Source of the DNA: Sporomusa silvacetica DSM 10669
Lineage (GTDB): Bacteria; Bacillota; Negativicutes; Sporomusales; Sporomusaceae
NCBI RefSeq assembly: GCF_002257705.2
Contig: NZ_CP155573.1
Coordinates: 5,037,814-5,069,813 of the forward strand
Length of the DNA: 32,000 bases
Direction of reading: 5' to 3'
This document shows positions 8,031 to 21,237 of the stretch, in pieces; the stretch's first letter is position 1; each line of letters opens with the position of its first letter. The translations under genes and the position numbers were made by a program. The notes beneath the pieces were generated by a model that was given only the letters and a program-made list of their open reading frames with translations, was not told the DNA's origin and searched no databases.

Positions 8031-8918
8031 TCACTTCAATAACCTCTCCTGAACAAGCTTACTGAAGGCTTGAATAGTAGAAGAAAGCCGTTTATCCTTG
8101 TGGTAGGCAAGATATGCATTGATCTGGAATTCCGGTCCTAACCAGGGCAAAGCCACTAAGGTACCTGCCGTAAGTTCATTTTGGACTGCCGCCTGGGGCA
8201 GGATAGTCAGCCCGATATTGCTCATAACAAATTGCTTAATAACCTCAATCTGGCATATTTCCAGCACATTTCCCGGCTGGACAGCCGCTTTTTCCATACT
8301 TTCTTCCAATAAAGTCCGATAGCTACTACCAGAATCGGGAAAGATCAGTGTTTGCCCGCCCAGGTCGCTTACCTGCACCCCGGCAAACCTGCTGAAAGCA
8401 TGGTTGGGTGAGGCGGTTAAAACCACAGGCTCCGGCCATAACAATTTACTGACTAAGTCAGGCTCCTGTATTTTCTCTTCCAGGAAAAAAGCCATATCCA
8501 TCATATTTTTTCGCAGCATATTGTGAAAATCACTGGAAATACCTAGCTTCACCTTCAATTCCACCTCAGGATATACGGCAGCATATTCCTTAAGCAAATC
8601 CTTCAACCGGTATACACAGAGCGATTCCGGCATACCAATGATAATCGGGCCTCGCGGTATCGAAAAATCATCAAGCACATTTTTAGCTTCCTCGGCCAGT
8701 TTGGTAATACGCTCTGCATAATCATAGAGCCGTTCACCATCACCGGTAAGCATTAGCTGATGACCAAACCGTTCAAACAAAACAGTGTTCAATTCTTTTT
8801 CCAAAAGCTGAATATGCGTTGTTGCTGTAGACTGAGTATAGCCAAGAAATTGCGCAGCCTGCGAAAAATTACCAAACTTAACAATACTCATAAACGTCTT
8901 TAATTGTCGTATTTCCAA
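8031..8918 (-). CDS. LysR-family transcriptional regulator
   Basis: The ORF-track frame is 8031-8927. With TTG 8918 (GGAG 8 nt upstream) the N-terminus reads MEIRQLKTFMSIVKFGNFSQAAQFLGYTQSTATTHIQLLE, the canonical LysR HTH. It is co-oriented with, and 39 nt upstream of, pxpB copy 2. Confidence 0.85.
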   Translation of the reverse strand: MEIRQLKTFMSIVKFGNFSQAAQFLGYTQSTATTHIQLLEKELNTVLFERFGHQLMLTGDGERLYDYAERITKLAEEAKNVLDDFSIPRGPIIIGMPESLCVYRLKDLLKEYAAVYPEVELKVKLGISSDFHNMLRKNMMDMAFFLEEKIQEPDLVSKLLWPEPVVLTASPNHAFSRFAGVQVSDLGGQTLIFPDSGSSYRTLLEESMEKAAVQPGNVLEICQIEVIKQFVMSNIGLTILPQAAVQNELTAGTLVALPWLGPEFQINAYLAYHKDKRLSSTIQAFSKLVQERLLK

Positions 8919-8972
8919 AAATACCACTCCAAAACAAGCTACTTTGTCTATATTATACTCGCTTTAACGCTT

Positions 8973-9000
8973 TCGACCACTTTTTTAAAAAAGTGGCCGA
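8973..9000 (-). terminator. Palindromic hairpin downstream of the I42 inhibitor gene
   Basis: TCGACCACTTTTTTAAAAAAGTGGCCGA contains the 20-nt perfect palindrome CCACTTTTTTAAAAAAGTGG. The A/T runs are internal, so terminator function is uncertain. Confidence 0.4.
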
Positions 9001-9098
9001 AACTCACTTGATCCTTCTAATGAGCTCGGCCATTTTGTTCCCATATTAGTACTTTCCCAGAATATATAGGTTTAGTTCTATACTGACAGTTCCATTAG

Positions 9099-9572
9099 CT
9101 ACTTGGTCTCCTGAACTGTCACCGCGATTGCCAGTGTCTTGGTTGCCAGTTTTCCCGCTTCCCAAGGCCGAGCAAAGCTAAAGCGGATGGTTTCTGTTCC
9201 CAACTCATCGCCCGCCTTCAGTATATAAGTATCACGCACCGGTCCGCCACACAGGTTCTTATCAGCTGACAACGGTTGGGAATCAGCTATTTGTGATGCT
9301 CTGACCAGCATAGGTTCTCCCTCTAGTTTCCACGAATAACCAGTTCCAGCTGCAGAAAGCAGTTCCACCCGGAACACTTCGCCTGGCTGGAGAGCAAGCG
9401 CCATGTCAACAACTCCCTGACCCAAACTGTCCGCCTGTACTGTCAGCTTAACAGACTCTTCCCGGTAAGCCATACCTTCCGCCGACACACTACCAGCAAA
9501 CAATAAAGGCAATACCATCATTACGAGTAACAGTTTAGCTAGCAGTTTCTTTGAAAAATCCCCCACAAACAT
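9099..9572 (-). CDS. Secreted chagasin-family (MEROPS I42) cysteine-peptidase inhibitor
   Basis: 157-aa ORF with an N-terminal signal peptide (LLLVMMVLPLLFAGSVSA/EG). Three loops match the chagasin/ICP signature as I remember it: AGTGYSW (NPTTGxxW-like), CGGPVRDTY (GxGG-like) and ARPWE (RPW). Confidence 0.6.
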   Translation of the reverse strand: MFVGDFSKKLLAKLLLVMMVLPLLFAGSVSAEGMAYREESVKLTVQADSLGQGVVDMALALQPGEVFRVELLSAAGTGYSWKLEGEPMLVRASQIADSQPLSADKNLCGGPVRDTYILKAGDELGTETIRFSFARPWEAGKLATKTLAIAVTVQETK

Positions 9573-9781
9573 CTTCCTCCCTAAATTCTATACTATTTTG
9601 AAAAACAGTTACCCTACGGCAAATTTAATCTGACCTGTACCATCCTTATAATAATAATCAATTGGTACCAGTTTCTCCGTGCTATATAAATTTTCCTGCT
9701 AGATTTTGTATAATCACAGGGCGTGAAAATGGTTTGCAAATCGAATCTATTGTTGAACTCAGATTTTTTTCTAAATAGGTA

Positions 9782-9809
9782 TTGTATTTCCTATTCTTTG
9801 TGTTATAAT
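9782..9809 (+). promoter_or_regulatory. Candidate promoter of the rubrerythrin gene (TTGTAT-N16-TATAAT with extended -10 TG)
   Basis: TTGTAT at 9782-9787, TG at 9801-9802 and TATAAT at 9804-9809, about 40 nt upstream of ATG 9849. Confidence 0.4.
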
Positions 9810-9816
9810 TATCCTA

Positions 9817-9831
9817 TAATAATAATTATTG
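9817..9831. promoter_or_regulatory. 7-1-7 inverted repeat TAATAAT-A-ATTATTG, a Fur/PerR-family-like operator
   Basis: Lies between the -10 element and the SD of the rubrerythrin gene. 6 of 7 half-site positions are complementary, and it resembles the PerR box TTATAATnATTATAA. Confidence 0.3.
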
Positions 9832-9848
9832 TTTGTGGAGGTAGATTT

Positions 9849-10397
9849 ATGAAAAAGTTTGTATGTACTATCTGTGGCTATGTTCACGAGGGCGACTTTG
9901 CTCCTGACGCTTGTCCCCAGTGCAACGCACCTGCTACTAAGTTTGTCGAACAGTCCGCTGCTGGTTTGAATTGGGCTGATGAGCATAGAATCGGCGTAGC
10001 CGCTGGCGTAGATACCCAAATCCTCGAAGGTCTGAAACTGAATTTTATGGGAGAGTGCACCGAAGTCGGCATGTATCTGGCAATGAGCCGCCAAGCTGAC
10101 CGCGAGGGTTACCCCGAGGTAGCTGAGGCATATAAGCGCATTGCCTTTGAAGAAGCCGAGCACGCCGCAAAATTTGCCGAATTGCTGGGTGAAGTCGTAA
10201 ACCCTTCTACCCAAAAGAACCTTGAACTCCGGGTAGAAGCTGAATATGGTGCCTGTCAAGGCAAACTGACTATCGCCAAAAAAGCTAAAGAACTTGGCTT
10301 GGATGCCATTCATGATACTGTTCATGAAATGTGCAAAGATGAAGCACGTCATGGCGCCGCCTTTAAGGGGTTACTAGATAGATATTTCGGGAAGTAG
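9849..10397 (+). CDS. rbr: Rubrerythrin with an N-terminal rubredoxin-like domain ('reverse' rubrerythrin)
   Basis: The ORF-track frame starts at GTG 9723, but GGAGG plus 7 nt precedes ATG 9849. [28 protein letters not shown] is a CxxC...CxxC rubredoxin knuckle. It is followed by a ferritin-like di-iron domain ([17 protein letters not shown]). Confidence 0.9.
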
Positions 10398-10410
10398 TAT
10401 TTGAAAACAA

Positions 10411-10448
10411 AAACACCTACGAGTCCATCAAACGACTCGTAGGTGTTT
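10411..10448. terminator. Bidirectional rho-independent terminator between the convergent rbr and dapA genes
   Basis: AAACACCTACGAGTC (10411-10425) pairs perfectly with GACTCGTAGGTGTTT (10434-10448), with an 8-nt loop. An A-run lies upstream and TTTTCTCTTC downstream. Confidence 0.75.
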
Positions 10449-10461
10449 TCTCTTCTAACTT

Positions 10462-11343
10462 CTACTTAATCAAGCCGTAAGCTTTCATTTCGCTACGGAG
10501 AAGTTCCAGGTTATGGTCCTCAAGCTCTGTTAACGGCATGCGGCATTGACCGGCCGTAAAGCCCAGCAGATTCACAGCTGCTTTAACCGGGATAGGGTTT
10601 ACTTCACTAAATAAGGCTTTTATGAGATTCAGTGTCTGAAGCTGCAACTTGATAGCACCCTTACAATCTCCCTGCAAGAATTTCGCAACCATATTGTGGG
10701 TATCCTGCGGGATAATATTAGCCATTACAGAAATTACACCTTGACCACCTAATGACAGTACAGGCAAAACACTATTGTCATCACCGGAATACACAGAGAA
10801 GTCCTCACCACACAAATTTACTACATCACCAACTTGACCGAGATTACATTCCTTAACGGCAATAATATTTTCGATTTTAGCTAATGCTTTTATCGTCTCA
10901 GGATTTATGTTCAAATTAGTTCTGCTCGGCACATTATATAATATTATTGGTATCTTAACACTATCAGCAATAAGCTTAAAATGCTTATATAAGCCCTTTT
11001 GTGTAGCTTTGTTATAGTAAGGAGTCACAGATAATAGTCCGTCAGCGCCCACTGCTTCAGCTGCTTTCGATAATTCTATGGCATGGCGGGTATCATTACT
11101 TCCCGTGCCGGCAATAACCGGTACGCGCTTGTTGACTGTTTCTACCGCAAACTTAATAGTAGCAATATGCTCATCATCTGGCATGGTGGAGGCTTCGCCC
11201 GTAGTAGCACAGATTACAATAGCATCTGTGCCGCTTTGGATTTGAAACTCAATTAGCTTTGCTAATGATTGATAATCAACACCATTGTCAGTAAATGGAG
11301 TTACAATAGCTACTGCAGACCCAGTAAATAATGGTTTTCTCAT
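10462..11343 (-). CDS. dapA: 4-hydroxy-tetrahydrodipicolinate synthase
   Basis: 293-aa ORF with the DapA motifs GTTGE, TPYYNK, YNVPSRT and the Schiff-base lysine context IIAVKE. SD AAGGGTGG lies upstream. Confidence 0.9.
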   Translation of the reverse strand: MRKPLFTGSAVAIVTPFTDNGVDYQSLAKLIEFQIQSGTDAIVICATTGEASTMPDDEHIATIKFAVETVNKRVPVIAGTGSNDTRHAIELSKAAEAVGADGLLSVTPYYNKATQKGLYKHFKLIADSVKIPIILYNVPSRTNLNINPETIKALAKIENIIAVKECNLGQVGDVVNLCGEDFSVYSGDDNSVLPVLSLGGQGVISVMANIIPQDTHNMVAKFLQGDCKGAIKLQLQTLNLIKALFSEVNPIPVKAAVNLLGFTAGQCRMPLTELEDHNLELLRSEMKAYGLIK

Positions 11344-11651
11344 AAGTTAACCACCCTTTATTCGTATTTGGTACTTCAAGTTATTAATACTATGATTATA
11401 TCCTATAAAACAACCAATTTCTATATAGATATCGCTCAAGCCGCTTTCTTTCTTAACAAAAATGCGTTCACGCAGTGACCCAAGTTTGCCTTATATACAT
11501 AAAAACAGCACCTAACAAATACAGTTGTCCTTATTTTATATATGACTAACATTATTCCCATTTCCGGGATGTGTCTTGCACTGTTTTTTACATGAATCAA
11601 TCACTTGGCCACAGCTGACCGGAACCGCATGTCATCTTTCCACCCCAAAAC

Positions 11652-11680
11652 AAAAAAGACTACATCTGGTAGTCTTTTTT
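11652..11680 (-). terminator. Rho-independent terminator downstream of the OMP gene
   Basis: AAAAAAGACTAC-ATCTG-GTAGTCTTTTTT, with the stem flanked by A6/T6. It starts 9 nt after the OMP stop codon. Confidence 0.7.
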
Positions 11681-11688
11681 GTTTCATC

Positions 11689-12309
11689 CTAATTAAATTT
11701 ATAGTTTGCACCAAAGCCAATGCCATCGGCTTTGATCCCCAAATCCTTATTGTCAAAGCTACGATACCCTGTATCAAGTGTGATGTTGTTGCCTACGTCG
11801 TAAGTGAGACCAGCTTTCCAGTCCTGCACGTTTTCAGAACGAATGTAAGAGGCGTAGCTGCCCACCTTGTTGGTAATAGCGCCTTTATACGCAATACCAC
11901 CAAACATTTCATTTGTGGAAATCGAGTCGCTGTTGGCTTTAAGTTCAGATTTTACATTACCTACAGAAACGGCAACATTTTTATTTAATTTATATTGCAG
12001 GCCAATTTCGGTTGAATTGAGACTCAGATTATTGTAATAGCCATTACTTGCTGAATAGAAGTTTTTGGACTCAGAATTCAGGTAGTCACCAGTAACAGCA
12101 AACTTGTCATTGAGGCCATAGGCTCCTTGAAAATTATTATTTTTTAAAGTTCCCAGATCGCCAAGTGTTCCCACACTTGTCTCTAAATTATTATAGGAAT
12201 AGCCTATTTGCCCTTGTCCTACGGCTACATCCATGCCTGGTACACTTGCAAAAGCAGTGCCGGCAAGGGTTAGAGAAGCAAGCACTGTTGATAGAATTAG
12301 TTTTTTCAT
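11689..12309 (-). CDS. Small outer-membrane beta-barrel protein (OMP_b-brl / OmpW-like class)
   Basis: 206-aa ORF with signal peptide MKKLILSTVLASLTLAGTAFA. It shows alternating aromatic/Gly-rich amphipathic strands and the C-terminal signature GFGANYKFN. A strong SD (GAGGAGGAAG) precedes the start. Confidence 0.65.
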   Translation of the reverse strand: MKKLILSTVLASLTLAGTAFASVPGMDVAVGQGQIGYSYNNLETSVGTLGDLGTLKNNNFQGAYGLNDKFAVTGDYLNSESKNFYSASNGYYNNLSLNSTEIGLQYKLNKNVAVSVGNVKSELKANSDSISTNEMFGGIAYKGAITNKVGSYASYIRSENVQDWKAGLTYDVGNNITLDTGYRSFDNKDLGIKADGIGFGANYKFN

Positions 12310-12625: not shown

Positions 12626-13267
12626 TTATGATTCTATATTTTTGTTGACAGTTTCAGGCCCCATAGCCAAAGCCAATAAAGTAATTACACCTAAAATACA
12701 CATATACACCACAATAGGCCACCAATGTCCACTCCAACTATATAGCGCAGTGCAAATAAACGGAGCCACTCCACCGGCAAGTATGGAGCCTAATTCACGA
12801 GAAAAAGCAAATCCAGATAAGCGAAAATCTGTATCAAATAATTCTGCATACCAGGAAGCCTGTGGCGTAATCATTGCTGGATAGGCTATCCCCAATCCTA
12901 CAATAAATCCCAGAATTATCGCCAAAACAGAGCCTGTGCCAACAATCATGAAAAAAGGAACAAGCCAAAGCATTGACAAGATAGTTCCACCAATATAAAC
13001 AGGCTTACGTCCAATTTTATCAGAAAGCATGCCATAAATGGGCATAGATATTAGTTGTGTCGCAGAAGCAATAATAACTCCCCATAACGCTGTAGACTTG
13101 GGTAGCCCTAGTCCGGTTACGAGATATGCCATAATGAAAACCGGATAGAAGTAGGCAAATCCATTCTCGCCCATGCGTGTGCCAATGACAATAAGAACTT
13201 CACGCGGATGACGCTTAATAGCTGAAAAAATACCAACATGTTTACCACTCTGTTCACGAGCAGCTTT
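12626..13267 (-). pseudogene. MFS transporter (metabolite:H+ symporter, MHS-like), C-terminal part, cut off by the IS3 insertion
   Basis: The frame stays open above the ORF-track ATG (13174) up to the IS junction: K-AAREQSGKHVGIFSAIKRHPREVLIVIGTRMGENGFAYF... GMLSDKIGRKP is the MFS loop 8-9 motif. The frame continues exactly from fragment 14483-14657 once the IS and one TSD copy are removed. Confidence 0.8.
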
Positions 13268-13341
13268 TGGATCGGCTACACTAAACTAGACAGAATTAAT
13301 AAGGTCATGTAAAACTATAAGAAAAGAAAAGGGAGATTTAC

Positions 13342-13629
13342 ATGACGGACAGACGAGCTAAAAGACAATTTACCAATCAATTCAAGCAACAAATGGTCCA
13401 ACTTTACAATAGCGGAAAATCCCGTTCAGAAATTGTCAAGGAATATGATCTAACCCCTTCCGCATTCGACAAGTGGGTTAGCCGAATCAATGCTACTGGA
13501 TCAGCAAAAGAATGTGATAATCGTACTCCGGAAGAAATAGAGTTAATCAAGCTTCGTAAAGAAAATCAGAAATTGAAGATGGAAAATGATATTTTAAAGC
13601 AAGCAGCGCTGATATTGGCACAAAAATAA
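13342..13629 (+). CDS. IS3-family transposase OrfA (HTH plus leucine zipper)
   Basis: 95-aa ORF. FKQQMVQLYNSGKSRSEIVKEYDLTPSAFDKWV is the HTH, and LRKENQKLKMENDILKQA is the leucine zipper typical of IS3 OrfA. The A5 run at 13622-13626 just before the TAA is the likely -1 slip site. Confidence 0.9.
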   Translation: MTDRRAKRQFTNQFKQQMVQLYNSGKSRSEIVKEYDLTPSAFDKWVSRINATGSAKECDNRTPEEIELIKLRKENQKLKMENDILKQAALILAQK

Positions 13630-13670
13630 TTGTAATCCGGCAAAATGCTCATAGATATTCTATATCAGCG

Positions 13671-14453
13671 ATGTGTAAATGCTTAAATATTGCCCGAAGT
13701 ACCTATTATTACGAGACAATTGGCAAGCCGGATGAAAATGATTTAGAAACAAAAATTGACTGGATTTTTCATGAGAATCACGATGTCTACGGAACAAGAA
13801 AGATCAAAAAAGAGCTGCAAAAATTAGACTATCAAGTTTCTCGTCGCCGTATCGGAAGAATCATGAAAAAGAACGGATTAGTCTCAAAATATACAGTTGC
13901 ACAATTTAAGCCTCATAAGCAGAAATGTAATGAAGAGCCTGTTAAAAATGAACTGAGACGGCAATTTACCGGACAAGCTCCCTATGCAGTAGTTGTCAGT
14001 GATTTAACGTATGTTCGGGTAAATTACAAATGGAACTACGTATGTATTCTTGTAGATTTGTTTAATCGAGAAATTATCGGCTATAGTGCCGGAATTCATA
14101 AAGATGCGCAATTAGTATATGATGCATTTGCAACAGTAAAGACGGATCTGAGAAACATTCAGATGTTTCATTCAGACCGGGGCAGTGAGTTTAAAAACGA
14201 ACTGCTTGATGAGGTGATTTCCACTTTTGAAATCAAACGTTCTCTTAGCATGAAGGGCTACCCTTATGATAATGCAGTGGCAGAGGCAACCTTTAAGATC
14301 TTCAAAACCGAATTTGTGTATGGGCGAAACTTCGATAGCTTATATCATTTACGCCATGAACTAGCCCGGTACATTGACTGGTTTAACAATATTAGAATTC
14401 ATGGTTCTCTCAATTACTTAACGCCAGTTCAAGTTCGACAATTGACCTTATAA
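13671..14453 (+). CDS. IS3-family transposase OrfB (DDE/rve catalytic domain), probably made as an OrfAB fusion by -1 frameshift
   Basis: The -1 frame is open from 13590, overlapping the end of orfA. The DDE triad contexts are VVSDLTY, FHSDRGSEF and YDNAVAEATF. The N-terminal YSISAMCKCLNIARSTYYY is the HTH_21-like motif. Confidence 0.9.
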   Translation: MCKCLNIARSTYYYETIGKPDENDLETKIDWIFHENHDVYGTRKIKKELQKLDYQVSRRRIGRIMKKNGLVSKYTVAQFKPHKQKCNEEPVKNELRRQFTGQAPYAVVVSDLTYVRVNYKWNYVCILVDLFNREIIGYSAGIHKDAQLVYDAFATVKTDLRNIQMFHSDRGSEFKNELLDEVISTFEIKRSLSMKGYPYDNAVAEATFKIFKTEFVYGRNFDSLYHLRHELARYIDWFNNIRIHGSLNYLTPVQVRQLTL

Positions 14454-14756: not shown

Positions 14757-14804
14757 CTGCTTGAAATAAGAAAAGACTTGGCTTGTGCCAAGTCCTTTAG
14801 GACG
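14757..14804. repeat. Copy A of a ~49-bp direct repeat (partner at 20189-20237)
   Basis: CTGCTTGAAATAAGAAAAGACTTGGCTTGTGCCAAGTCCTTTAGGACG matches copy B at 44 of 49 aligned positions, in the same orientation. Confidence 0.75.
14766..14794 (-). terminator. Rho-independent terminator of cstA (inside repeat copy A)
   Basis: Minus-strand reading is GACUUGGC-ACAA-GCCAAGUC followed by UUUUCUUAUUU. It lies about 85 nt after the cstA stop. Confidence 0.6.
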
Positions 14805-14877
14805 GCCAACTTGTGATTGGCTTACTTGTCAGTGTGCTCAACATCTGGCTGTTTAATGATCAGTTCTTCAAATAAAC

Positions 14878-16943: not shown

Positions 16944-17049
16944 AAACATCCCTCCCTCTTTGCCATTAGCATGATACAAAATTACTATCTATATTCAGGT
17001 ATCAGGTTCTATTCCGCTATTTTCATTAGGCTGCATTTAGGTTTACAAA

Positions 17050-17100
17050 GATGAAATCGGCTTAATTCCTTGCGTAGCAAAGAATTAAGCCGATTTCATC
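17050..17100 (-). terminator. 19-bp perfect inverted repeat hairpin downstream of the 989-aa gene
   Basis: GATGAAATCGGCTTAATTC (17050-17068) and GAATTAAGCCGATTTCATC (17082-17100) flank a 13-nt loop. On the minus strand it is followed only by CUUUGU, a weak U-tract. Confidence 0.55.
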
Positions 17101-17128
17101 GTTAATAGCGCTAAAGTTAACAAACGCA

Positions 17129-20098
17129 TTATCGTGCTCTTCTCAGAGTGGTTTTGAAAGCAGTAGTTATATTACTATGTGCCTTGGGATTACGAGTACG
17201 CAACTTCTCCAGCCAGTATATCAGTTTGGTATGACTCTCTTGTTTTCCCGCCAGCCAAACCAGCAAACGGCTAAACCCAAACTCATATACATCAACTTTA
17301 ACATATACCGCCAAGAGCTTAAATAACGTGCGATCAGAATGATTGGCAATTACTTTTTCCACAGCTTCTTCGGCCAATATCTCGCGTACATAGCTATGCT
17401 CACTCAGCCTTAACATGGCATAAAACCAGGTAATACACTGTTCTTCGTCAGCTAAATAGCCATTTAGCAGCTGGACCTCTAGTTTTTTTAAAAACAGCCC
17501 CTGTAGATAAGCCGCTTGCACCTCTTTAAACCGCTGTTCACCTTCAAGCGAGTTAAGTACAAACTCCAGTTTTGGGCAAAATGCCTGTTGGTCAAAATTC
17601 CAAACGTGACAAACAATCTGATTATTAATAACATCGTACATCCAAATCTCACCAAAGCGCAGATAGCTATCTTGTTTACGCTGTGCATCGTACATTATTG
17701 TTTTATACTCTTCCAGATCACCAGTATACCATTCTTTAATCATCTCTTGAGCAATGCTTTTGGCGTCTTCATCTTCTATTTGGAAATAGCTCCTGAGCGC
17801 CAGTTCTTCCTGCTGGTTAGAGTAGCGAAAAACCGGCAAACTTTGTTCTGTACGCCTGAGGTTATCAACCAGTTGCTTACAGGTATCAATTAATTCATAC
17901 TGCGCATTTACGGCGATCACAACTGCTCCATTGCGGGGGGTGGCAGCAAACAGGCCGCTAAGAACTACTTTCCGCCCTTTATCAGTCAGTTCGTAGTTCT
18001 TAGCGCCACCAACCTCACATTCACTCAGCAAATGGCAGCGGACAAGTTCGCTAAGGTAATAGCTGACAGCGACCTCTTCCACTCGTAATAAACCAACAAT
18101 ACCTTGTTGACTACACAGCTCAGCCAGGCCGCAGGAAATACACTTCATAATAAACTCTTCGATGAGGTTATAGCGCCTGTATCCGTCAAGCCGAAACTCT
18201 ACTGCTATAACAGCAACAGGCAGTTGCCATTCTCGTGTCTCTAATACTACCATTCCGGCTTGCTCAGCGACTATACGCTGAGCGATATTCTCAATTTCTA
18301 AGGATTTTTTTCCTAAAAGCGTTTCCGCCGGGGTTACTCCACTTACTATGTCAGTCATGCCTACATTACATTCAGGCTGGTACTGAGCTTTCTGTATCCG
18401 GTTTATCCATTCCTCCGCCAGCAAAACCCTTATTTTGTTATCAGGGCTTACGCTCTCTGCCAAATGTGCTGTACTTGTTTTGATTCTTGAAGAAATGATA
18501 TCTTGCTCGCATACTAATTTCTCCAGTTTACCACAAGCTACCGTTATTACATCTTCCAATTCGGTCAGACGCTGGCGGCTTTCCTGCAATCTATTTGTAT
18601 TGTCTGTCCTTTGTTTCTCAATATTGTCAACTTGTCTTGAGAGATCTTCTAACCTATTTTGCTGTTCTCTCTGGCGGGGCACTACCATTATGTCGTTTTC
18701 CTGCAATAAACCCTGCCGCTCAGCAAGCGCAGACTTCTGCTGTTGCAACTTGTATTGAGCCTGCTCCAGCGTGTGCTCAATTTTTCCTAAACTTTGTTGC
18801 AACTCAAGCACATCATTAACGGGATTGGGGTCCATTTTCGCTTTAATGTCTTGTGTTTCCTTACGGGAGCTTAGCAGTTGTTTTGTTAAAGCCGCTAATT
18901 CCTCTTGGCACTGGTTATAGGCATGTTCTATTGAATGTCCGCAATCCAGAAGCTGCCGGTAGCAAGCCTCATAAATCCGTTGCGTTAGATGACGGCATTC
19001 CAGCAAAACCTTATCAATTTCGGCAATTGTTTGTTCACGAAGAACAGCGGGCGAATCTGCCCGTTCTTCCATCGACTTAGCCTTTATAAGCAAATCCAAT
19101 AACGTTTTTTTCCACTGCGTACACAGGCCGAGTTTAGCCAATATTCCCGGTGGCGTAACCCATAATAGGTCATTAATTTCTTGGCGTAAGTGACTGATAG
19201 TTTGATAATTAACCACCACATCCTGTGTGTCTGACTGAAGATCACTTGTCGTCAAACCATAGTCCTTCGCCGTATCATTTAGAACGTAAGATAATTCACG
19301 TAATTGGGTTATTTTTTCAAACGCCGTAGATTTAAGATCATATTGTCGTTGCTTAATGATATTGATTAGCTCCAACAAACGACTAATATCCTGATTCAAA
19401 AAGTGATTTATTGGCGCTTGTTCCTGACACGCCACCTGCTGCACGACAGCTACAAACTCAGTAAGGTCTTGGTTGTACTGTGCGACAGCAATAATTTGCT
19501 CCTCACGCTTACCACTTAATAATACATAAGCATCTTGTTTGTGCTCGATAAGCAGTGACAAGGCTTTAACCAGGTTTGTCTTTTCCGCTTCGATACGCTG
19601 CAACTCAAATTCCCGGGTAATTACAGTTGCTTGAAGCTTTTCATTTTGCTGTTCCAAGTCAGCCAGTTCGGATAAATAGGTTAACTGTACAGTCACGTCT
19701 TCCCTTTTCGCCAGGTTTTGGGCAATGACAGCTTCTGTCTCATATTGAGCCGCAAACAACCGGTCTTCTTCCTCATCAGCAGGCGCCGGCCTTCGCAGAC
19801 TAGTTTTCTGCTCGCTCACTATTTTCTGATACTCTGCTTGCAGAGCTTCATGCCGTGCTTTTAAAGCCTCACTGTCGCGCTGAATTTCATGCTCAAATTG
19901 AGCTAAATCCCGCCATTGTTCATCATAGCCGGTAATCTCATCTGCGCTAACAGTACATTCTGCTTGTATTTCATCCTGCCGTTTCGTGAGACTGGCTAGC
20001 TCCAGCCGCATGCTAGCGGTTTCTTCCTGTTTTTTTTGCAGCTCAAGCAAGTCCTGCTGGCACCAAATAGCTATTTGGCTTAGATTTAAGGGTGCCAT
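17129..20098 (-). CDS. Hypothetical 989-aa protein: long N-terminal coiled coil, central winged-helix-like module and an unassigned C-terminal domain
   Basis: Uninterrupted 2.97-kb ORF. The first ~560 aa are Q/E/L/K-rich and heptad-like. There is no Walker A motif, signal peptide or TM segment. I recognise no family. Confidence 0.7.
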   Translation of the reverse strand: MAPLNLSQIAIWCQQDLLELQKKQEETASMRLELASLTKRQDEIQAECTVSADEITGYDEQWRDLAQFEHEIQRDSEALKARHEALQAEYQKIVSEQKTSLRRPAPADEEEDRLFAAQYETEAVIAQNLAKREDVTVQLTYLSELADLEQQNEKLQATVITREFELQRIEAEKTNLVKALSLLIEHKQDAYVLLSGKREEQIIAVAQYNQDLTEFVAVVQQVACQEQAPINHFLNQDISRLLELINIIKQRQYDLKSTAFEKITQLRELSYVLNDTAKDYGLTTSDLQSDTQDVVVNYQTISHLRQEINDLLWVTPPGILAKLGLCTQWKKTLLDLLIKAKSMEERADSPAVLREQTIAEIDKVLLECRHLTQRIYEACYRQLLDCGHSIEHAYNQCQEELAALTKQLLSSRKETQDIKAKMDPNPVNDVLELQQSLGKIEHTLEQAQYKLQQQKSALAERQGLLQENDIMVVPRQREQQNRLEDLSRQVDNIEKQRTDNTNRLQESRQRLTELEDVITVACGKLEKLVCEQDIISSRIKTSTAHLAESVSPDNKIRVLLAEEWINRIQKAQYQPECNVGMTDIVSGVTPAETLLGKKSLEIENIAQRIVAEQAGMVVLETREWQLPVAVIAVEFRLDGYRRYNLIEEFIMKCISCGLAELCSQQGIVGLLRVEEVAVSYYLSELVRCHLLSECEVGGAKNYELTDKGRKVVLSGLFAATPRNGAVVIAVNAQYELIDTCKQLVDNLRRTEQSLPVFRYSNQQEELALRSYFQIEDEDAKSIAQEMIKEWYTGDLEEYKTIMYDAQRKQDSYLRFGEIWMYDVINNQIVCHVWNFDQQAFCPKLEFVLNSLEGEQRFKEVQAAYLQGLFLKKLEVQLLNGYLADEEQCITWFYAMLRLSEHSYVREILAEEAVEKVIANHSDRTLFKLLAVYVKVDVYEFGFSRLLVWLAGKQESHTKLIYWLEKLRTRNPKAHSNITTAFKTTLRRAR

Positions 20099-20115
20099 TC
20101 TATCTTTTTACTCAT
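20086..20115 (-). CDS. 9-codon leader mini-ORF (MSKKIEWHP) overlapping the start of the 989-aa ORF
   Basis: GGAGG at 20127-20123 is 7 nt from ATG 20115-20113, and the stop TAA is at 20088-20086. The ATG of the large ORF (20098-20096) lies inside it in another frame and has no SD of its own. Confidence 0.25.
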   Translation of the reverse strand: MSKKIEWHP

Positions 20116-20188
20116 GTAACTGCCTCCAGTAAAACATCTCTTACTATGTATATATTTTACACAAAGCTACAGGCTTCTCCTTCCAAGG

Positions 20189-20237
20189 CTGCTTAAAATA
20201 AGATAAGACTAAGGCTTCTGCCAAGTCCTTTAGGACG
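20189..20237. repeat. Copy B of the ~49-bp direct repeat (partner at 14757-14804)
   Basis: CTGCTTAAAATAAGATAAGACTAAGGCTTCTGCCAAGTCCTTTAGGACG; see copy A. Confidence 0.75.
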
Positions 20238-20249
20238 CCGGCAGAAGCC
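20213..20249 (-). terminator. Terminator-like hairpin overlapping repeat copy B
   Basis: GGCTTCTGCC (20213-20222) pairs perfectly with GGCAGAAGCC (20240-20249) and encloses the mini-hairpin GTCC-TTTA-GGAC. On the minus strand it is followed by UUAGUCUUAUCUUAUUUU. Confidence 0.45.
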
Positions 20250-20310
20250 GCCTGTGCCCTTTAGGGGTATAGTCGTTCAATCCATGGAGAGTTAACCTTT
20301 CCATCTGGAC

Positions 20311-20350: not shown

Positions 20351-20647
20351 TTAGCCCACAACAGCAACCAACCTTTTATAGAATAGCAGCTTTGCTAATT
20401 TTACAATAACAGTTTGAAAGTTAGCTGGCACGTTGTCAGCATAAAAGATAGTTATATCATCTACCGTCAACTTATAGTAAATTTGAATTTTTTCCGGATC
20501 TATTCCCAGTCGCACGGACGGGAGTTTGGCCTCTTGGCCACCTCCTCAGCAACTGCCAGGACGCCTGGCAACAGTAAGAGTAATAGCCTTATCCTTATTT
20601 TTTTTCATTATATAATCGCGGGCTGCTGGCTCAATAATTATATTCAC
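20351..20647 (-). CDS. Probable small selenoprotein (98 aa, Sec at residue 34 in a G-S-C-U-G-G-G loop), HesB/IscA-like; absent from the ORF track because of the in-frame TGA
   Basis: Hand translation gives (GTG)MNIIIEPAARDYIMKKNKDKAITLTVARRPGSC-TGA-GGGQEAKLPSVRLGIDPEKIQIYYKLTVDDITIFYADNVPANFQTVIVKLAKLLFYKRLVAVVG-TAA. The only stop in 99 codons is TGA 20548-20546. The GTG start overlaps the tatA stop (GTGA), with AAGGTGG 10 nt upstream; the alternative start is ATG 20608. Stem-loops follow the TGA, and a strong terminator follows the TAA. Confidence 0.6.
20505..20545 (-). promoter_or_regulatory. Candidate SECIS region (two stem-loops immediately 3' of the in-frame UGA)
   Basis: Hairpin 1 is GGAG-GU-GGCC AAGA GGCC-AAA-CUCC (20545-20521). 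Hairpin 2 is CCCGUC CGUGC GAC(U)GGG (20522-20505), with a GU-containing loop about 30 nt from the UGA and a bulged U. Folded by eye only. Confidence 0.35.
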
Positions 20648-20850
20648 TTTGTTTGTTCCACCTTCTTTTCTACCGGCTCAGCCTTGATAGTGATCGTTTC
20701 GTCCTTCGCCCCCTCACCGGAAAGGGCCCGCCGAAGCTCCGTCATCCCTTTACCAAGAGCCTTACCTGCTTCTGGTAACTTACCTGGTCCAAATACAAGC
20801 AGAGCAATAACTAGTATTACGCTTAGTTCAGGCATACTTAGATTAAACAT
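20644..20850 (-). CDS. tatA: Twin-arginine translocase subunit TatA/E
   Basis: 68-aa ORF. MFNLSMPELSVILVIALLVFGPGKLPEAGKALGKGM is the canonical TatA TM helix, FGP hinge and amphipathic helix. Confidence 0.85.
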   Translation of the reverse strand: MFNLSMPELSVILVIALLVFGPGKLPEAGKALGKGMTELRRALSGEGAKDETITIKAEPVEKKVEQTK

Positions 20851-21237
20851 AGTTCCACATCCCTTTTATTATTTCTTACCAGTCAGGTCCTATTATGAAC
20901 TGTGTATTCAAACAATGGGATAATCAACCGTAAGCTCTGCAGCTACCTTTCCATTAAGCCGGTCTTCCACATTTTGAATTATACAAAACGCTTCATTGCA
21001 GGGTGCATTTTTTTAAAATAAATTCATAGAGTACTTCCTCTCTCACTATCCTAAGCATGCGCGGCAATAACAAAATTTATAAGATTTGAAATGCAAATTA
21101 ATTAACGCCTACACCTCTCTGCAAATATTAACTATTACTATTATATTATTCCTATCAAAACATGAAATTCCTGCTATGATGTGCGAGATTCGGCAAAAAA
21201 TTTCACCCGTGACTTGTTCACACATAAACAATCCTTT

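What the first reader, a model, noticed from the sequence alone, without database searches (positions are those of the whole stretch)
17129..20098. 989-aa orphan protein: ~560-aa coiled coil, winged-helix-like module and unassigned C-domain, with no enzymatic motif
This is the largest ORF in the window and the only one I cannot place in a family. Residues ~1-560 are heptad-like and Q/E/L/K-rich, for example LELQKKQEETASMRLELASLTKRQDEIQ, LEQAQYKLQQQKSALAERQGLLQEN and QNRLEDLSRQVDNIEKQRTDNTNRLQESRQRLTELED. Residues ~640-720 (YNLIEEFIMKCISCGLAELCSQQGIVGLLRVEEVAVSYYLSELVRCHLLSECEVGGAKNYELTDKGRKVV) look like a MarR/ScpB-style winged helix. The last ~270 aa carry no motif I recognise. There is no Walker A (GxxxxGK[ST]), signal peptide or TM segment, so it is not an SMC/Rad50/MukB-type ATPase. 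The shape (long coiled coil plus wHTH) still recalls condensin accessory proteins and some anti-phage sensor scaffolds. The gene is monocistronic and bounded by strong hairpins on both sides (17050-17100 and 20213-20249). It lies inside the segment bracketed by the 49-bp direct repeats, 2.6 kb from an IS3 copy. By eye it looks more AT-rich than the flanking metabolic genes, but I did not compute this. It is the best candidate here for an undescribed function, though nothing in the sequence proves a role.
Basis: partly seen in the sequence, partly recalled or inferred. Interest (0 to 1): 0.6.

Follow-up and report, generated by a model that had tools for sequence, protein, structure and literature searches.

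The report
Catalytically dead Mokosh defence-gene fusion
The 989-residue "orphan" is a real gene confined to Sporomusa that descends from a two-gene anti-phage system (Mokosh type I); it has lost its helicase motor and its nuclease domain, and selection keeps only the coiled-coil, winged-helix and helical scaffold parts.

Summary
The ORF is real: minus strand, 20098..17129, 989 aa. It has no Walker A, HKD motif or TM segment. The winged helix is confirmed (residues 641-716). The protein is not an orphan.

Sporomusa relatives occur as adjacent gene pairs and as fusions. The N-gene matches PADLOC MkoA (E 6e-14). The C-gene matches MkoB (E 3e-13 to 5e-12).

Bacillus, Clostridium, Alicyclobacillus and Exiguobacterium relatives are canonical MkoA+MkoB pairs. 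Their MkoA carries a 400-490-aa E/K/Q/L-rich insert at the same site in the first RecA domain.

The window protein is that insert, plus a remnant of the Walker B strand, read through into MkoB's winged helix, beta domain and C-terminal helical bundle.

- All Sporomusa copies have lost the P-loop glycine, the Walker B glutamate, the second RecA domain and the PLD histidine.
- The window lineage has also deleted the whole PLD core, in frame. This happened at least twice in the genus, probably three times.

dN/dS is 0.27 (interval 0.21-0.35), against 0.05-0.16 for neighbouring genes. The gene is therefore maintained but relaxed.

The "49-bp bracketing repeats" are copies of a REP-like element present about 211 times in the genome. 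The gene is not AT-rich.

Most likely function: a non-enzymatic scaffold or binder. This is inferred, not shown. Novelty: a new variant of a known kind.

The parts
17129..20098 (-). 989-aa ORF (P0001), stop codon included: a fused, catalytically dead MkoA-MkoB derivative.
   Evidence: It is the only copy in its own genome.
19424..20098 (-). Residues 1-225: E/Q/L/A-rich, P/G-poor helical arm. It is homologous to the start of the insert that follows the P-loop segment in the Sporomusa MkoA-like proteins.
   Evidence: Alignment A5; composition and heptad scan; omega about 0.27.
18839..19423 (-). Residues 226-420: the best-conserved part of the N-half, less charged. It is the inferred apex or globular helical region of the folded-back insert.
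   Evidence: Invariant columns in A5; lowest omega, 0.13-0.22; lower heptad score. The fold-back topology is an inference.
18386..18838 (-). Residues 421-571: second coiled-coil arm, with the strongest heptad signal.
   Evidence: The weak compositional SMC hit, TIGR02169 at residues 388-550, lies here. Omega 0.36-0.50.
18305..18385 (-). Residues 572-598: remnant of the MkoA Walker B strand. NVGMTDIV stands where canonical proteins have DVVIIDEV. The sequence then reads through into the MkoB-like part, so this is the fusion joint.
   Evidence: Alignments.
18179..18304 (-). Residues 599-640: N-terminal helix and long beta hairpin of the MkoB-like module (ETREWxLPVAV motif).
   Evidence: AF2 model; invariant columns.
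17951..18178 (-). Residues 641-716: MarR-type winged helix, net charge -1.
   Evidence: This is also the site of the weak PADLOC MkoB hit, E 1e-4.
17576..17950 (-). Residues 717-841: beta-rich middle domain shared with MkoB (NAQYE, FRY, GEIWxYD and CxVWxF motifs).
   Evidence: No separate fold match was obtained, and the domain was barely tested.
17465..17575 (-). Residues 842-878: one continuous long helix carrying the in-frame deletion junction (Y864|L865, about 17506/17507). About 170 aa of PLD core are missing here.
   Evidence: Alignment A1; comparison of the models.
17132..17464 (-). Residues 879-989: C-terminal helical bundle, conserved across the whole Sporomusa clade and present in canonical MkoB.
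17053..17097 (-). Terminator-like hairpin about 30 nt after the stop codon.
20086..20127 (-). GGAGG Shine-Dalgarno (20123-20127) and a 9-codon mini-ORF (20115..20086). The mini-ORF overlaps, out of frame, the SD-less ATG of the main ORF. The region is conserved in two sister species.
20205..20255 (-). REP-like hairpin element, one of about 211 genomic copies. It is inserted upstream only in this genome and is not part of the gene.

Best explanation
SHOWN: the gene descends from a type I Mokosh anti-phage pair, mkoA (a Upf1-like SF1 helicase) followed by mkoB (a PLD nuclease). In the Sporomusa lineage both partners lost their catalytic residues. The helicase kept only its first RecA domain with its long coiled-coil insert.

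In the window's lineage three further changes followed. The P-loop segment was lost. The stop codon between the two genes was lost. The dead PLD core was cut out in frame.

What remains is the coiled-coil insert, a Walker B strand remnant, and MkoB's hairpin, winged helix, beta domain and C-terminal helical bundle. The protein therefore has none of the conserved residues these domains need to hydrolyse ATP or to cleave nucleic acid by the PLD mechanism.

INFERRED: because the reading frame and these non-catalytic parts stay under purifying selection, the protein most likely works without catalysis. It would act as an elongated coiled-coil scaffold, probably self-associating. Its MkoB-derived head would bind whatever the ancestral complex docked on (a protein or a nucleic acid) and would act by binding or sequestering it.
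For: ANCESTRY
- Relatives exist as split pairs and as fusions in 9 of 15 other genomes of the genus.
- N-genes match PADLOC MkoA (6e-14, 1e-12) and Pfam AAA_11. C-genes match MkoB (3e-13, 5e-12, 1.4e-11) and the PLD end of MkoC (8e-7).
- A profile of the C-module finds 575 relatives, and 36 of 37 sampled are MkoB.
- The nearest intact relatives sit directly downstream of 1222-1337-aa MkoA genes (PADLOC 2e-113; AAA_11 plus AAA_12). These carry a 400-490-aa insert at the same site.

LOSS OF CATALYSIS
- GPPGTGKT has become GxPxVDKT or similar.
- DVVIIDEV has become DVVITDMV, and NVGMTDIV in the window.
- The proteins stop before motif III.
- The HKD histidine is replaced in every long form, and the domain is absent in the window.

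SELECTION
- Omega is 0.27, bootstrap interval 0.21-0.35.
- The ORF is intact in species with saturated dS.
- There are three different in-frame deletion junctions, and every one keeps the C-terminal bundle.
- The tree places the short forms in at least two separate positions.
- About 130 nt upstream, including the SD and mini-ORF, are conserved.
- The AF2 model of the remainder is confident: pLDDT 93, with the excision healed into one helix.
Against: - No function was tested, and no binding partner or ligand is known.
- Omega is 2-5 times that of neighbouring genes.
- The family is patchy within the genus: it is missing from 6 of 15 genomes, 5 of which are at least 99% complete.
- Domains keep being lost and the start codon has no SD of its own. 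All of these points also fit slow decay.
- The winged helix is not basic (net -1) and the whole protein is acidic (net -37), so DNA binding is not implied.
- The window sequence alone matches PADLOC MkoB only at E 1e-4, in the promiscuous winged-helix region. The assignment therefore rests on transitive homology through 42-55% identical relatives.
- The coiled-coil insert shows no sequence similarity to the inserts of canonical MkoA.
Confidence: 0.55

Rival explanations
1. A functionless relic of a dead Mokosh system that is decaying slowly. On this view the open frame and omega below 1 reflect residual or past constraint, not a present role.
For: - Every catalytic feature is gone.
- Deletions recur.
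- Omega is raised relative to neighbours.
- The distribution within the genus is patchy.
- One relative (G006) has the two parts in one frame, separated by a single TGA.
- The start codon has no SD.
Against: - About 990 codons stay open in at least four species, including a pair with dS above 2.
- The bootstrap interval for omega excludes 1.
- All three deletions are in frame and keep the C-terminal bundle.
- The upstream control region is conserved.
- The remaining domains are predicted to fold confidently.
Confidence: 0.25
2. It is still a working defence component. The scaffold would sense phage infection and signal to, or recruit, an effector encoded elsewhere in the genome.
For: - It has defence ancestry.
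- The genus-level patchiness and faster evolution than neighbouring genes are typical of immune genes.
- Nuclease-NTPase systems work as protein complexes (10.1101/2025.07.10.664194).
Against: - Its own genome has no canonical MkoA helicase or MkoB PLD.
- No partner gene is conserved next to the fused forms.
- In canonical Mokosh, mutations in the ATP-binding site or in the PLD site abolish defence (10.1101/2022.05.11.491447).
Confidence: 0.12
3. One reading: an SMC/condensin-accessory-like or chromatin protein (coiled coil plus a ScpB/MarR-type winged helix), unrelated to defence systems.
For: - Weak compositional hits to SMC (TIGR02169, E 1.2e-5) and to Sso10a (E 0.033).
- The winged-helix fold is confirmed.
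Against: - The SMC and JetC hits fall only in coiled-coil regions and far below the family cut-offs.
- Homology to MkoA/MkoB explains the whole length.
- The winged helix is acidic to neutral.
- The family is confined to one genus.
Confidence: 0.03
4. An enzyme with an unrecognised active site in the beta domain or the C-terminal bundle.
For: These two domains gave no separate fold assignment. They hold the most invariant residues in the protein.
Against: No profile or fold hit points to any enzyme. The same domains exist in canonical MkoB beside a real catalytic PLD domain.
Confidence: 0.05

Closest known systems
Type I Mokosh anti-phage system (MkoA SF1/Upf1-like helicase plus MkoB PLD nuclease; Millman et al., preprint 10.1101/2022.05.11.491447)
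   Same: - Split relatives have the same gene order and adjacency.
- The N-gene is homologous to the MkoA RecA1 domain, with an insert at the same site.
- The C-part is homologous to MkoB's winged helix, beta domain and C-terminal helical domain.
- Long relatives keep the PLD fold.
   Different: - There is no Walker A, no Walker B glutamate, no RecA2 domain and no kinase domain.
- The PLD histidine is lost in the whole clade, and the PLD core is deleted in the window protein.
- The two genes are fused in MkoA-to-MkoB order.
- In canonical Mokosh both catalytic activities are required for defence.
Type II Mokosh (MkoC): a single polypeptide with an N-terminal helicase and a C-terminal PLD
   Same: It is one polypeptide with the helicase-derived part first and the PLD-protein-derived part second. 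Long relatives match the PLD end of MkoC (8e-7; 30 of 37 relatives).
   Different: The fusion here arose independently within Sporomusa, from a split type I pair. It lacks both catalytic domains.
Pseudo-PLD scaffolds (FAM83 DUF1669) and TrmB/TrmBL2 (a winged helix joined to a larger C-terminal domain)
   Different: This is structural resemblance only, with no sequence relationship shown. The window protein has lost this domain altogether.
MarR-family winged-helix regulators
   Different: There are no MarR dimerisation helices around it, and no Pfam MarR match. Its charge is acidic to neutral. It is embedded in a 989-aa protein.

Membership tests
Mokosh type I, MkoA component | Walker A / motif I (GxxxxGK[ST]) of an SF1 helicase | tested here: not met
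   P0001 has no such motif, and no remnant lies upstream of the ORF. Split relatives carry GxPxVDKT, NSPAVMNK or PPGTDKA in place of GPPGTGKT.
Mokosh type I, MkoA component | Walker B / motif II (DExx) | tested here: not met
   The remnant NVGMTDIV (around residues 578-585) aligns to the canonical DVVIIDEV, and the glutamate is lost. All split Sporomusa forms have lost it too.
Mokosh type I, MkoA component | Second RecA domain (Pfam AAA_12) and motifs III-VI | tested here: not met
   Sporomusa N-genes end at ..LVG, just before GDHxQLPP. Canonical neighbours have AAA_12 at E 1e-43 to 1e-49.
Mokosh type I, MkoA component | Serine/threonine kinase domain in the helicase gene (Millman et al.) | tested here: not met
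   No kinase match was found in P0001 or its relatives. None was seen by Pfam in the nearest canonical MkoA either.
Mokosh type I, MkoA component | Sequence homology to the MkoA RecA1 domain, with an insert at the same position | tested here: met
   For the split relatives: PADLOC MkoA 6e-14 and 1e-12, Pfam AAA_11, and two-segment matches to canonical MkoA. P0001 residues 1-598 align along the insert and the Walker B remnant of these relatives.
Mokosh type I, MkoB component | PLD-fold nuclease domain with an HxKx4D..GSxN motif | tested here: not met
   The domain is absent from P0001: about 170 aa are deleted at Y864|L865. Long relatives keep the fold but have lost the His and GSxN. Canonical relatives keep GNHHNKE..VD..GSFNWLSYRGDY.
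Mokosh type I, MkoB component | Homology of the non-catalytic parts (N-terminal hairpin, winged helix, beta domain, C-terminal helical domain) | tested here: met
   The profile A2, which includes the window sequence, finds 575 relatives, and 36 of 37 sampled match PADLOC MkoB, best 4.5e-37. The window sequence alone reaches only E 1e-4.
Mokosh (any type) | Protection against phage infection | not testable with these tools
   This needs plaque assays. The published systems require the ATPase and PLD sites.
SMC/Rad50/MukB-type coiled-coil ATPases | ABC-type ATPase head (Walker A and B, signature motif) flanking the coiled coil | tested here: not met
   No such motifs are present. The SMC and JetC hits are coiled-coil only: 23 bits against a cut-off of 729.
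MarR-family transcription regulators | Winged helix flanked by dimerising helices; Pfam MarR match | tested here: inconclusive
   The winged-helix fold matches. There is no Pfam MarR hit and the surrounding architecture differs. DNA binding was not tested.

The most novel reading that the evidence does not exclude
A defence system has been turned into a pseudo-enzyme. Selection keeps the non-catalytic skeleton of a Mokosh complex (the helicase's coiled-coil insert fused to the nuclease's docking domains) for a new, binding-only role in Sporomusa. It discards the dead PLD domain repeatedly. The new role might be as a decoy or sequestering sensor, or as a structural or regulatory protein. Such a protein would also mark which parts of Mokosh mediate assembly or target recognition, as distinct from catalysis.
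Probability: 0.35. Interest if true: 0.6.

Novelty: new variant of a known kind. Interest (0 to 1): 0.45.

Why it matters
It removes an "orphan" from the list by giving it a documented origin. It also offers a natural dissection of type I Mokosh, a common defence system whose mechanism and complex are still unsolved: the type I proteins could not be purified in 10.1101/2025.07.10.664194.

The Sporomusa series runs in steps, from a split dead pair, to a fusion, to a PLD-less fusion. It shows which modules survive without catalysis:
- the coiled-coil insert of MkoA;
- the winged-helix and beta head of MkoB;
- the C-terminal helical bundle of MkoB.

These modules are therefore candidates for the assembly or sensing surfaces. 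The series also shows that MkoA of this subfamily carries a 400-490-aa insert in RecA1.

If the relic has a new function, it would be a bacterial case of an immune pseudo-enzyme. If it has none, it is a well-resolved example of how defence genes decay.

For annotation, these genes should be named degenerate MkoA/MkoB-like and should not be counted as active Mokosh.

Tried and rejected
- Pfam and NCBIfam scans of P0001 gave only sub-threshold hits: OKR_DC_1_N, CRR7, SMC coiled coil and Sso10a.
- A word-index search for longer relatives (1732-4945 aa) found none.
- A PDB sequence search with the C-module profile found nothing below E 0.1.
- Foldseek and VIA searches with the window C-module model matched only the winged helix. 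The beta domain and the helical bundle remain without a fold assignment, but they were barely tested because one domain filled the hit list.
- An HMM of the Sporomusa insert found no similarity to canonical MkoA inserts, so only position, length and composition are shared.
- tblastn for a P-loop remnant upstream of the ORF found nothing.
- The ESM Atlas feature search of residues 1-595 scored at most 0.76, which is chance level, and the Atlas holds no model.
- tblastn against the plasmid and phage collections found no match.
- A programmed -1 frameshift from the mini-ORF was considered. It was set aside because the semi-slippery T-AAA-AAG in this genome is AAG-AAG in the sister species.
Neighbourhoods were therefore taken from the genome search, the fetch from genomes and the search for related loci instead.
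- The first search for related loci attempt, with A4, failed for lack of a conserved stretch. It was repeated with A7.
- Both structure-prediction jobs went to the C-modules, so the N-half (residues 1-595) was not modelled. The heptad scan used for it is home-made and crude.
Full report
**1. The observation**

The 989-codon ORF lies on the minus strand, 20098..17129. P0001 contains no GxxxxGK[ST], no GK[ST] at all and no HxKx4D. Its most hydrophobic 19-residue window scores 1.42, so no membrane segment is predicted.

Pfam and NCBIfam give nothing above threshold. The SMC hit is 23 bits against a cut-off of 729, falls at residues 388-550, and is a coiled-coil composition match.

My crude heptad scan exceeds the 95th percentile of shuffles only in patches: 141-160, 381-440 and 461-520. 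Residues 226-420 are less charged and are the most conserved part of the N-half. "A 560-aa coiled coil" is therefore too simple. Two helical arms around a conserved middle part fits better.

The gene's GC is 0.438, against 0.441 for the window, so it is not AT-rich.

Both flanking hairpins are real. The 49-bp repeats exist, but their core occurs 211 times in the genome (reversed control 0), with strand tracking the replichore. They are REP-like elements, not the borders of a mobile segment. The upstream copy is an insertion found only in this genome.

**2. Relatives and architecture**

The word-index search found close full-length relatives (83-89% identical), named only as Sporomusa hypothetical proteins. 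It also found three longer relatives (1123-1179 aa) and two shorter "helicase / AAA domain" proteins with Pfam AAA_11.

In whole genomes the family occurs in 9 of 15 other genomes of the genus. It was found in none of 4 other genera of the family. In a 201-genome sample of the class, strong matches occur only in this genus. The window's genome has a single copy.

Three architectures exist:

| Architecture | Sizes | Genomes or proteins |
|---|---|---|
| Adjacent gene pairs | 609-745 aa, then 404-566 aa | G005, G008, G006 |
| Long fusions | 1056-1179 aa | G011, G013, P0006, P0008 |
| Short fusions lacking about 170 aa | 986-1013 aa | window, G009, G007, G004 |

**3. Identity**

- PADLOC assigns the N-genes to MkoA (6e-14, 1e-12).
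- It assigns the C-genes and long fusions to MkoB (3e-13, 5e-12, 1.4e-11, 2e-9) and to the PLD end of MkoC (8e-7).
- A profile of five C-modules, including the window's, finds 575 proteins at E <= 1e-3 among 1.84 billion representatives.
- Of 37 aligned members, 36 match MkoB (best 4.5e-37) and 30 match MkoC.
- The exception is the window fragment itself. On its own it reaches only E 1e-4, in the winged-helix region. That region is promiscuous, because the MkoB model also hits the MarR gene in this window.
- The window's membership therefore rests on its 42-55% identity to the long forms.
- Loci of the nearest intact relatives (Alicyclobacillus, Bacillus cereus, two Clostridium, Exiguobacterium) all show a 1222-1337-aa gene directly upstream.
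- That upstream gene is MkoA (PADLOC about 1e-110; AAA_11 split in two, plus AAA_12). The downstream gene is MkoB with PLDc_2.
- This matches the published definition of type I Mokosh: a helicase gene and a PLD gene (10.1101/2022.05.11.491447).

**4. Where the N-half comes from**

The Sporomusa N-genes match canonical MkoA in two segments, the P-loop region and the Walker B region. These segments are separated in both by 400-500 residues. The canonical inserts are E/K/Q/L-rich and poor in P and G. They have no detectable sequence similarity to the Sporomusa insert.

P0001 residues 1-571 align along the Sporomusa insert. Residues 572-598 align to the Walker B strand. The sequence then continues into the N-terminus of the C-gene.

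In G006 the two genes are in one frame, separated by a single TGA. Loss of a stop codon is therefore enough to make the fusion.

The P-loop segment is absent from P0001 and leaves no trace upstream. G004 and G011 keep a vestige of the region just after it.

**5. Loss of catalysis**

| Feature | Canonical | Sporomusa clade | Source |
|---|---|---|---|
| Walker A | GPPGTGKTT | GLPKVDKTT, GSPEVDKTT, NSPAVMNKAE, PPGTDKAI; segment absent in the window | |
| Walker B | DVVIIDEV | DVVITDMV, DVIISDVV, NVIVTDIV, DVIITDNV; NVGMTDIV in the window | |
| Motif III onward, RecA2 | present (GDHxQLPP, AAA_12) | proteins end before it | |
| PLD motif | GNHHNKE..VD..GSFNWLSYRGDY | His replaced by A, R, D, E or S, and GSxN lost, in every long form | |

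In the window protein this whole domain is missing. The AF2 model of residues 595-989 (pLDDT 93, pTM 0.71) shows the following elements:
- an N-terminal helix and a long hairpin;
- a winged helix;
- a beta domain;
- one uninterrupted long helix across the junction Y864|L865;
- a helical bundle.

Published Mokosh systems lose defence when either the ATP-binding site or the PLD site is mutated. The PLD histidine forms the covalent intermediate (10.1101/2025.07.10.664194).

**6. Evolution**

A maximum-likelihood tree of C-modules gives these results:
- The Sporomusa clade is monophyletic (100/100).
- The window's short-fusion group (100/100) is sister to the long fusion P0006 (93/93).
- Both sit inside a 98/98 clade with other long fusions.
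- The other short forms (G004/P0015, G008/P0017, P0016) lie outside that clade.

The deletion junctions differ in the three groups whose junctions were aligned (the window clade, G004 and G008), and two of them keep small remnants. The PLD core was therefore removed in frame at least twice, and probably three times. Each time the C-terminal bundle was kept.

| Comparison | dN/dS | Source |
|---|---|---|
| Window vs its two closest species | 0.27-0.28 (bootstrap 0.21-0.35) | |
| Lowest part, residues 226-420 | 0.13-0.22 | |
| Highest part, the second arm | 0.36-0.50 | |
| Window vs G004, where dS is saturated | 0.19 | |
| Neighbouring genes | 0.05-0.16 | |
| Spurious plus-strand ORF 20414-20923 | 0.87 | |

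The locus is syntenic in the three closest species. Flanking proteins there are 92-98% identical, against 85-86% for this gene. The roughly 130 nt upstream, including GGAGG and a 9-codon mini-ORF that overlaps the SD-less start, are conserved.

**7. Mechanism**

Shown:
- the ancestry;
- the absence of every catalytic determinant;
- confident folding of the remainder;
- purifying but relaxed selection.

Inferred:
- The insert must leave and re-enter one RecA domain in the ancestor. It therefore probably folds back as an antiparallel hairpin, with residues 226-420 at its tip.
- The parts that survive are the non-catalytic surfaces of a nuclease-NTPase complex. Such systems generally work as complexes.
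- The protein most likely acts by binding rather than by catalysis.

What it binds is unknown. The winged helix is acidic to neutral here and across MkoB, so I do not claim DNA binding. Slow decay without function remains a serious rival (0.25).

**8. Comparison and novelty**

The protein works like nothing that has been characterised. By descent it is a Mokosh type I derivative, but it fails every catalytic membership criterion. It should not be annotated as an active Mokosh.

I found no description of catalytically dead or PLD-less Mokosh derivatives in the papers searched. That is a limited search.

Verdict: a new variant of a known kind, of moderate interest.

Noticed in passing
window 14757-14806 and 20190-20255; own genome, e.g. 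G000:C1:1314642-1315024: A REP-like hairpin element with core TGCCAAGTCCTTTAGGACG occurs about 211 times in the genome (99 forward, 112 reverse; reversed control 0). Its strand follows the replichore. Some copies form tandem arrays at 91-bp spacing.
   Followed up: partly
window 20086-20127 (-): A strong SD (GGAGG) serves a 9-codon mini-ORF (MSKKIEWHP) that overlaps, out of frame, the SD-less ATG of the 989-aa gene. The arrangement is conserved in two sister species, which suggests translational coupling or reinitiation.
   Followed up: partly
window 20414-20923 (+): This 169-codon ORF has dN/dS 0.87 against its counterpart in G009 and no Pfam match. It is probably not a gene.
   Followed up: partly
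L027 (G006) 8636-12151 (+): In this Sporomusa genome the MkoA-like and MkoB-like ORFs are in the same frame, separated by a single TGA. This could be a recent split, a recent fusion in waiting, or read-through. Sporomusa uses selenocysteine, but no SECIS element was looked for.
   Followed up: no
L042:2958-6971, L040:100-3768, L043:3151-6945, L044:3077-6988, L045:3162-6905: Canonical type I MkoA proteins of Bacillus, Alicyclobacillus, Clostridium and Exiguobacterium carry a 400-490-aa E/K/Q/L-rich insert between the Walker A and Walker B segments. By Pfam, the three scanned (L042, L040, L044) show no kinase domain.
   Followed up: partly
window 12626-14453: An IS3-family element (orfA 13342-13629, orfB 13671-14453) lies next to a truncated MFS transporter ORF (12626-13174). 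This stretch and the OMP gene at 11689-12309 have no counterpart in the sister genomes, so this side of the locus is variable.
   Followed up: partly
window 17045-17105 (-): A 24-bp near-perfect stem (-37.1 kcal/mol, z -11.6) lies between the gene and the ferredoxin-cstA pair. Its U-tract is weak, so it may be more than a simple terminator.
   Followed up: no
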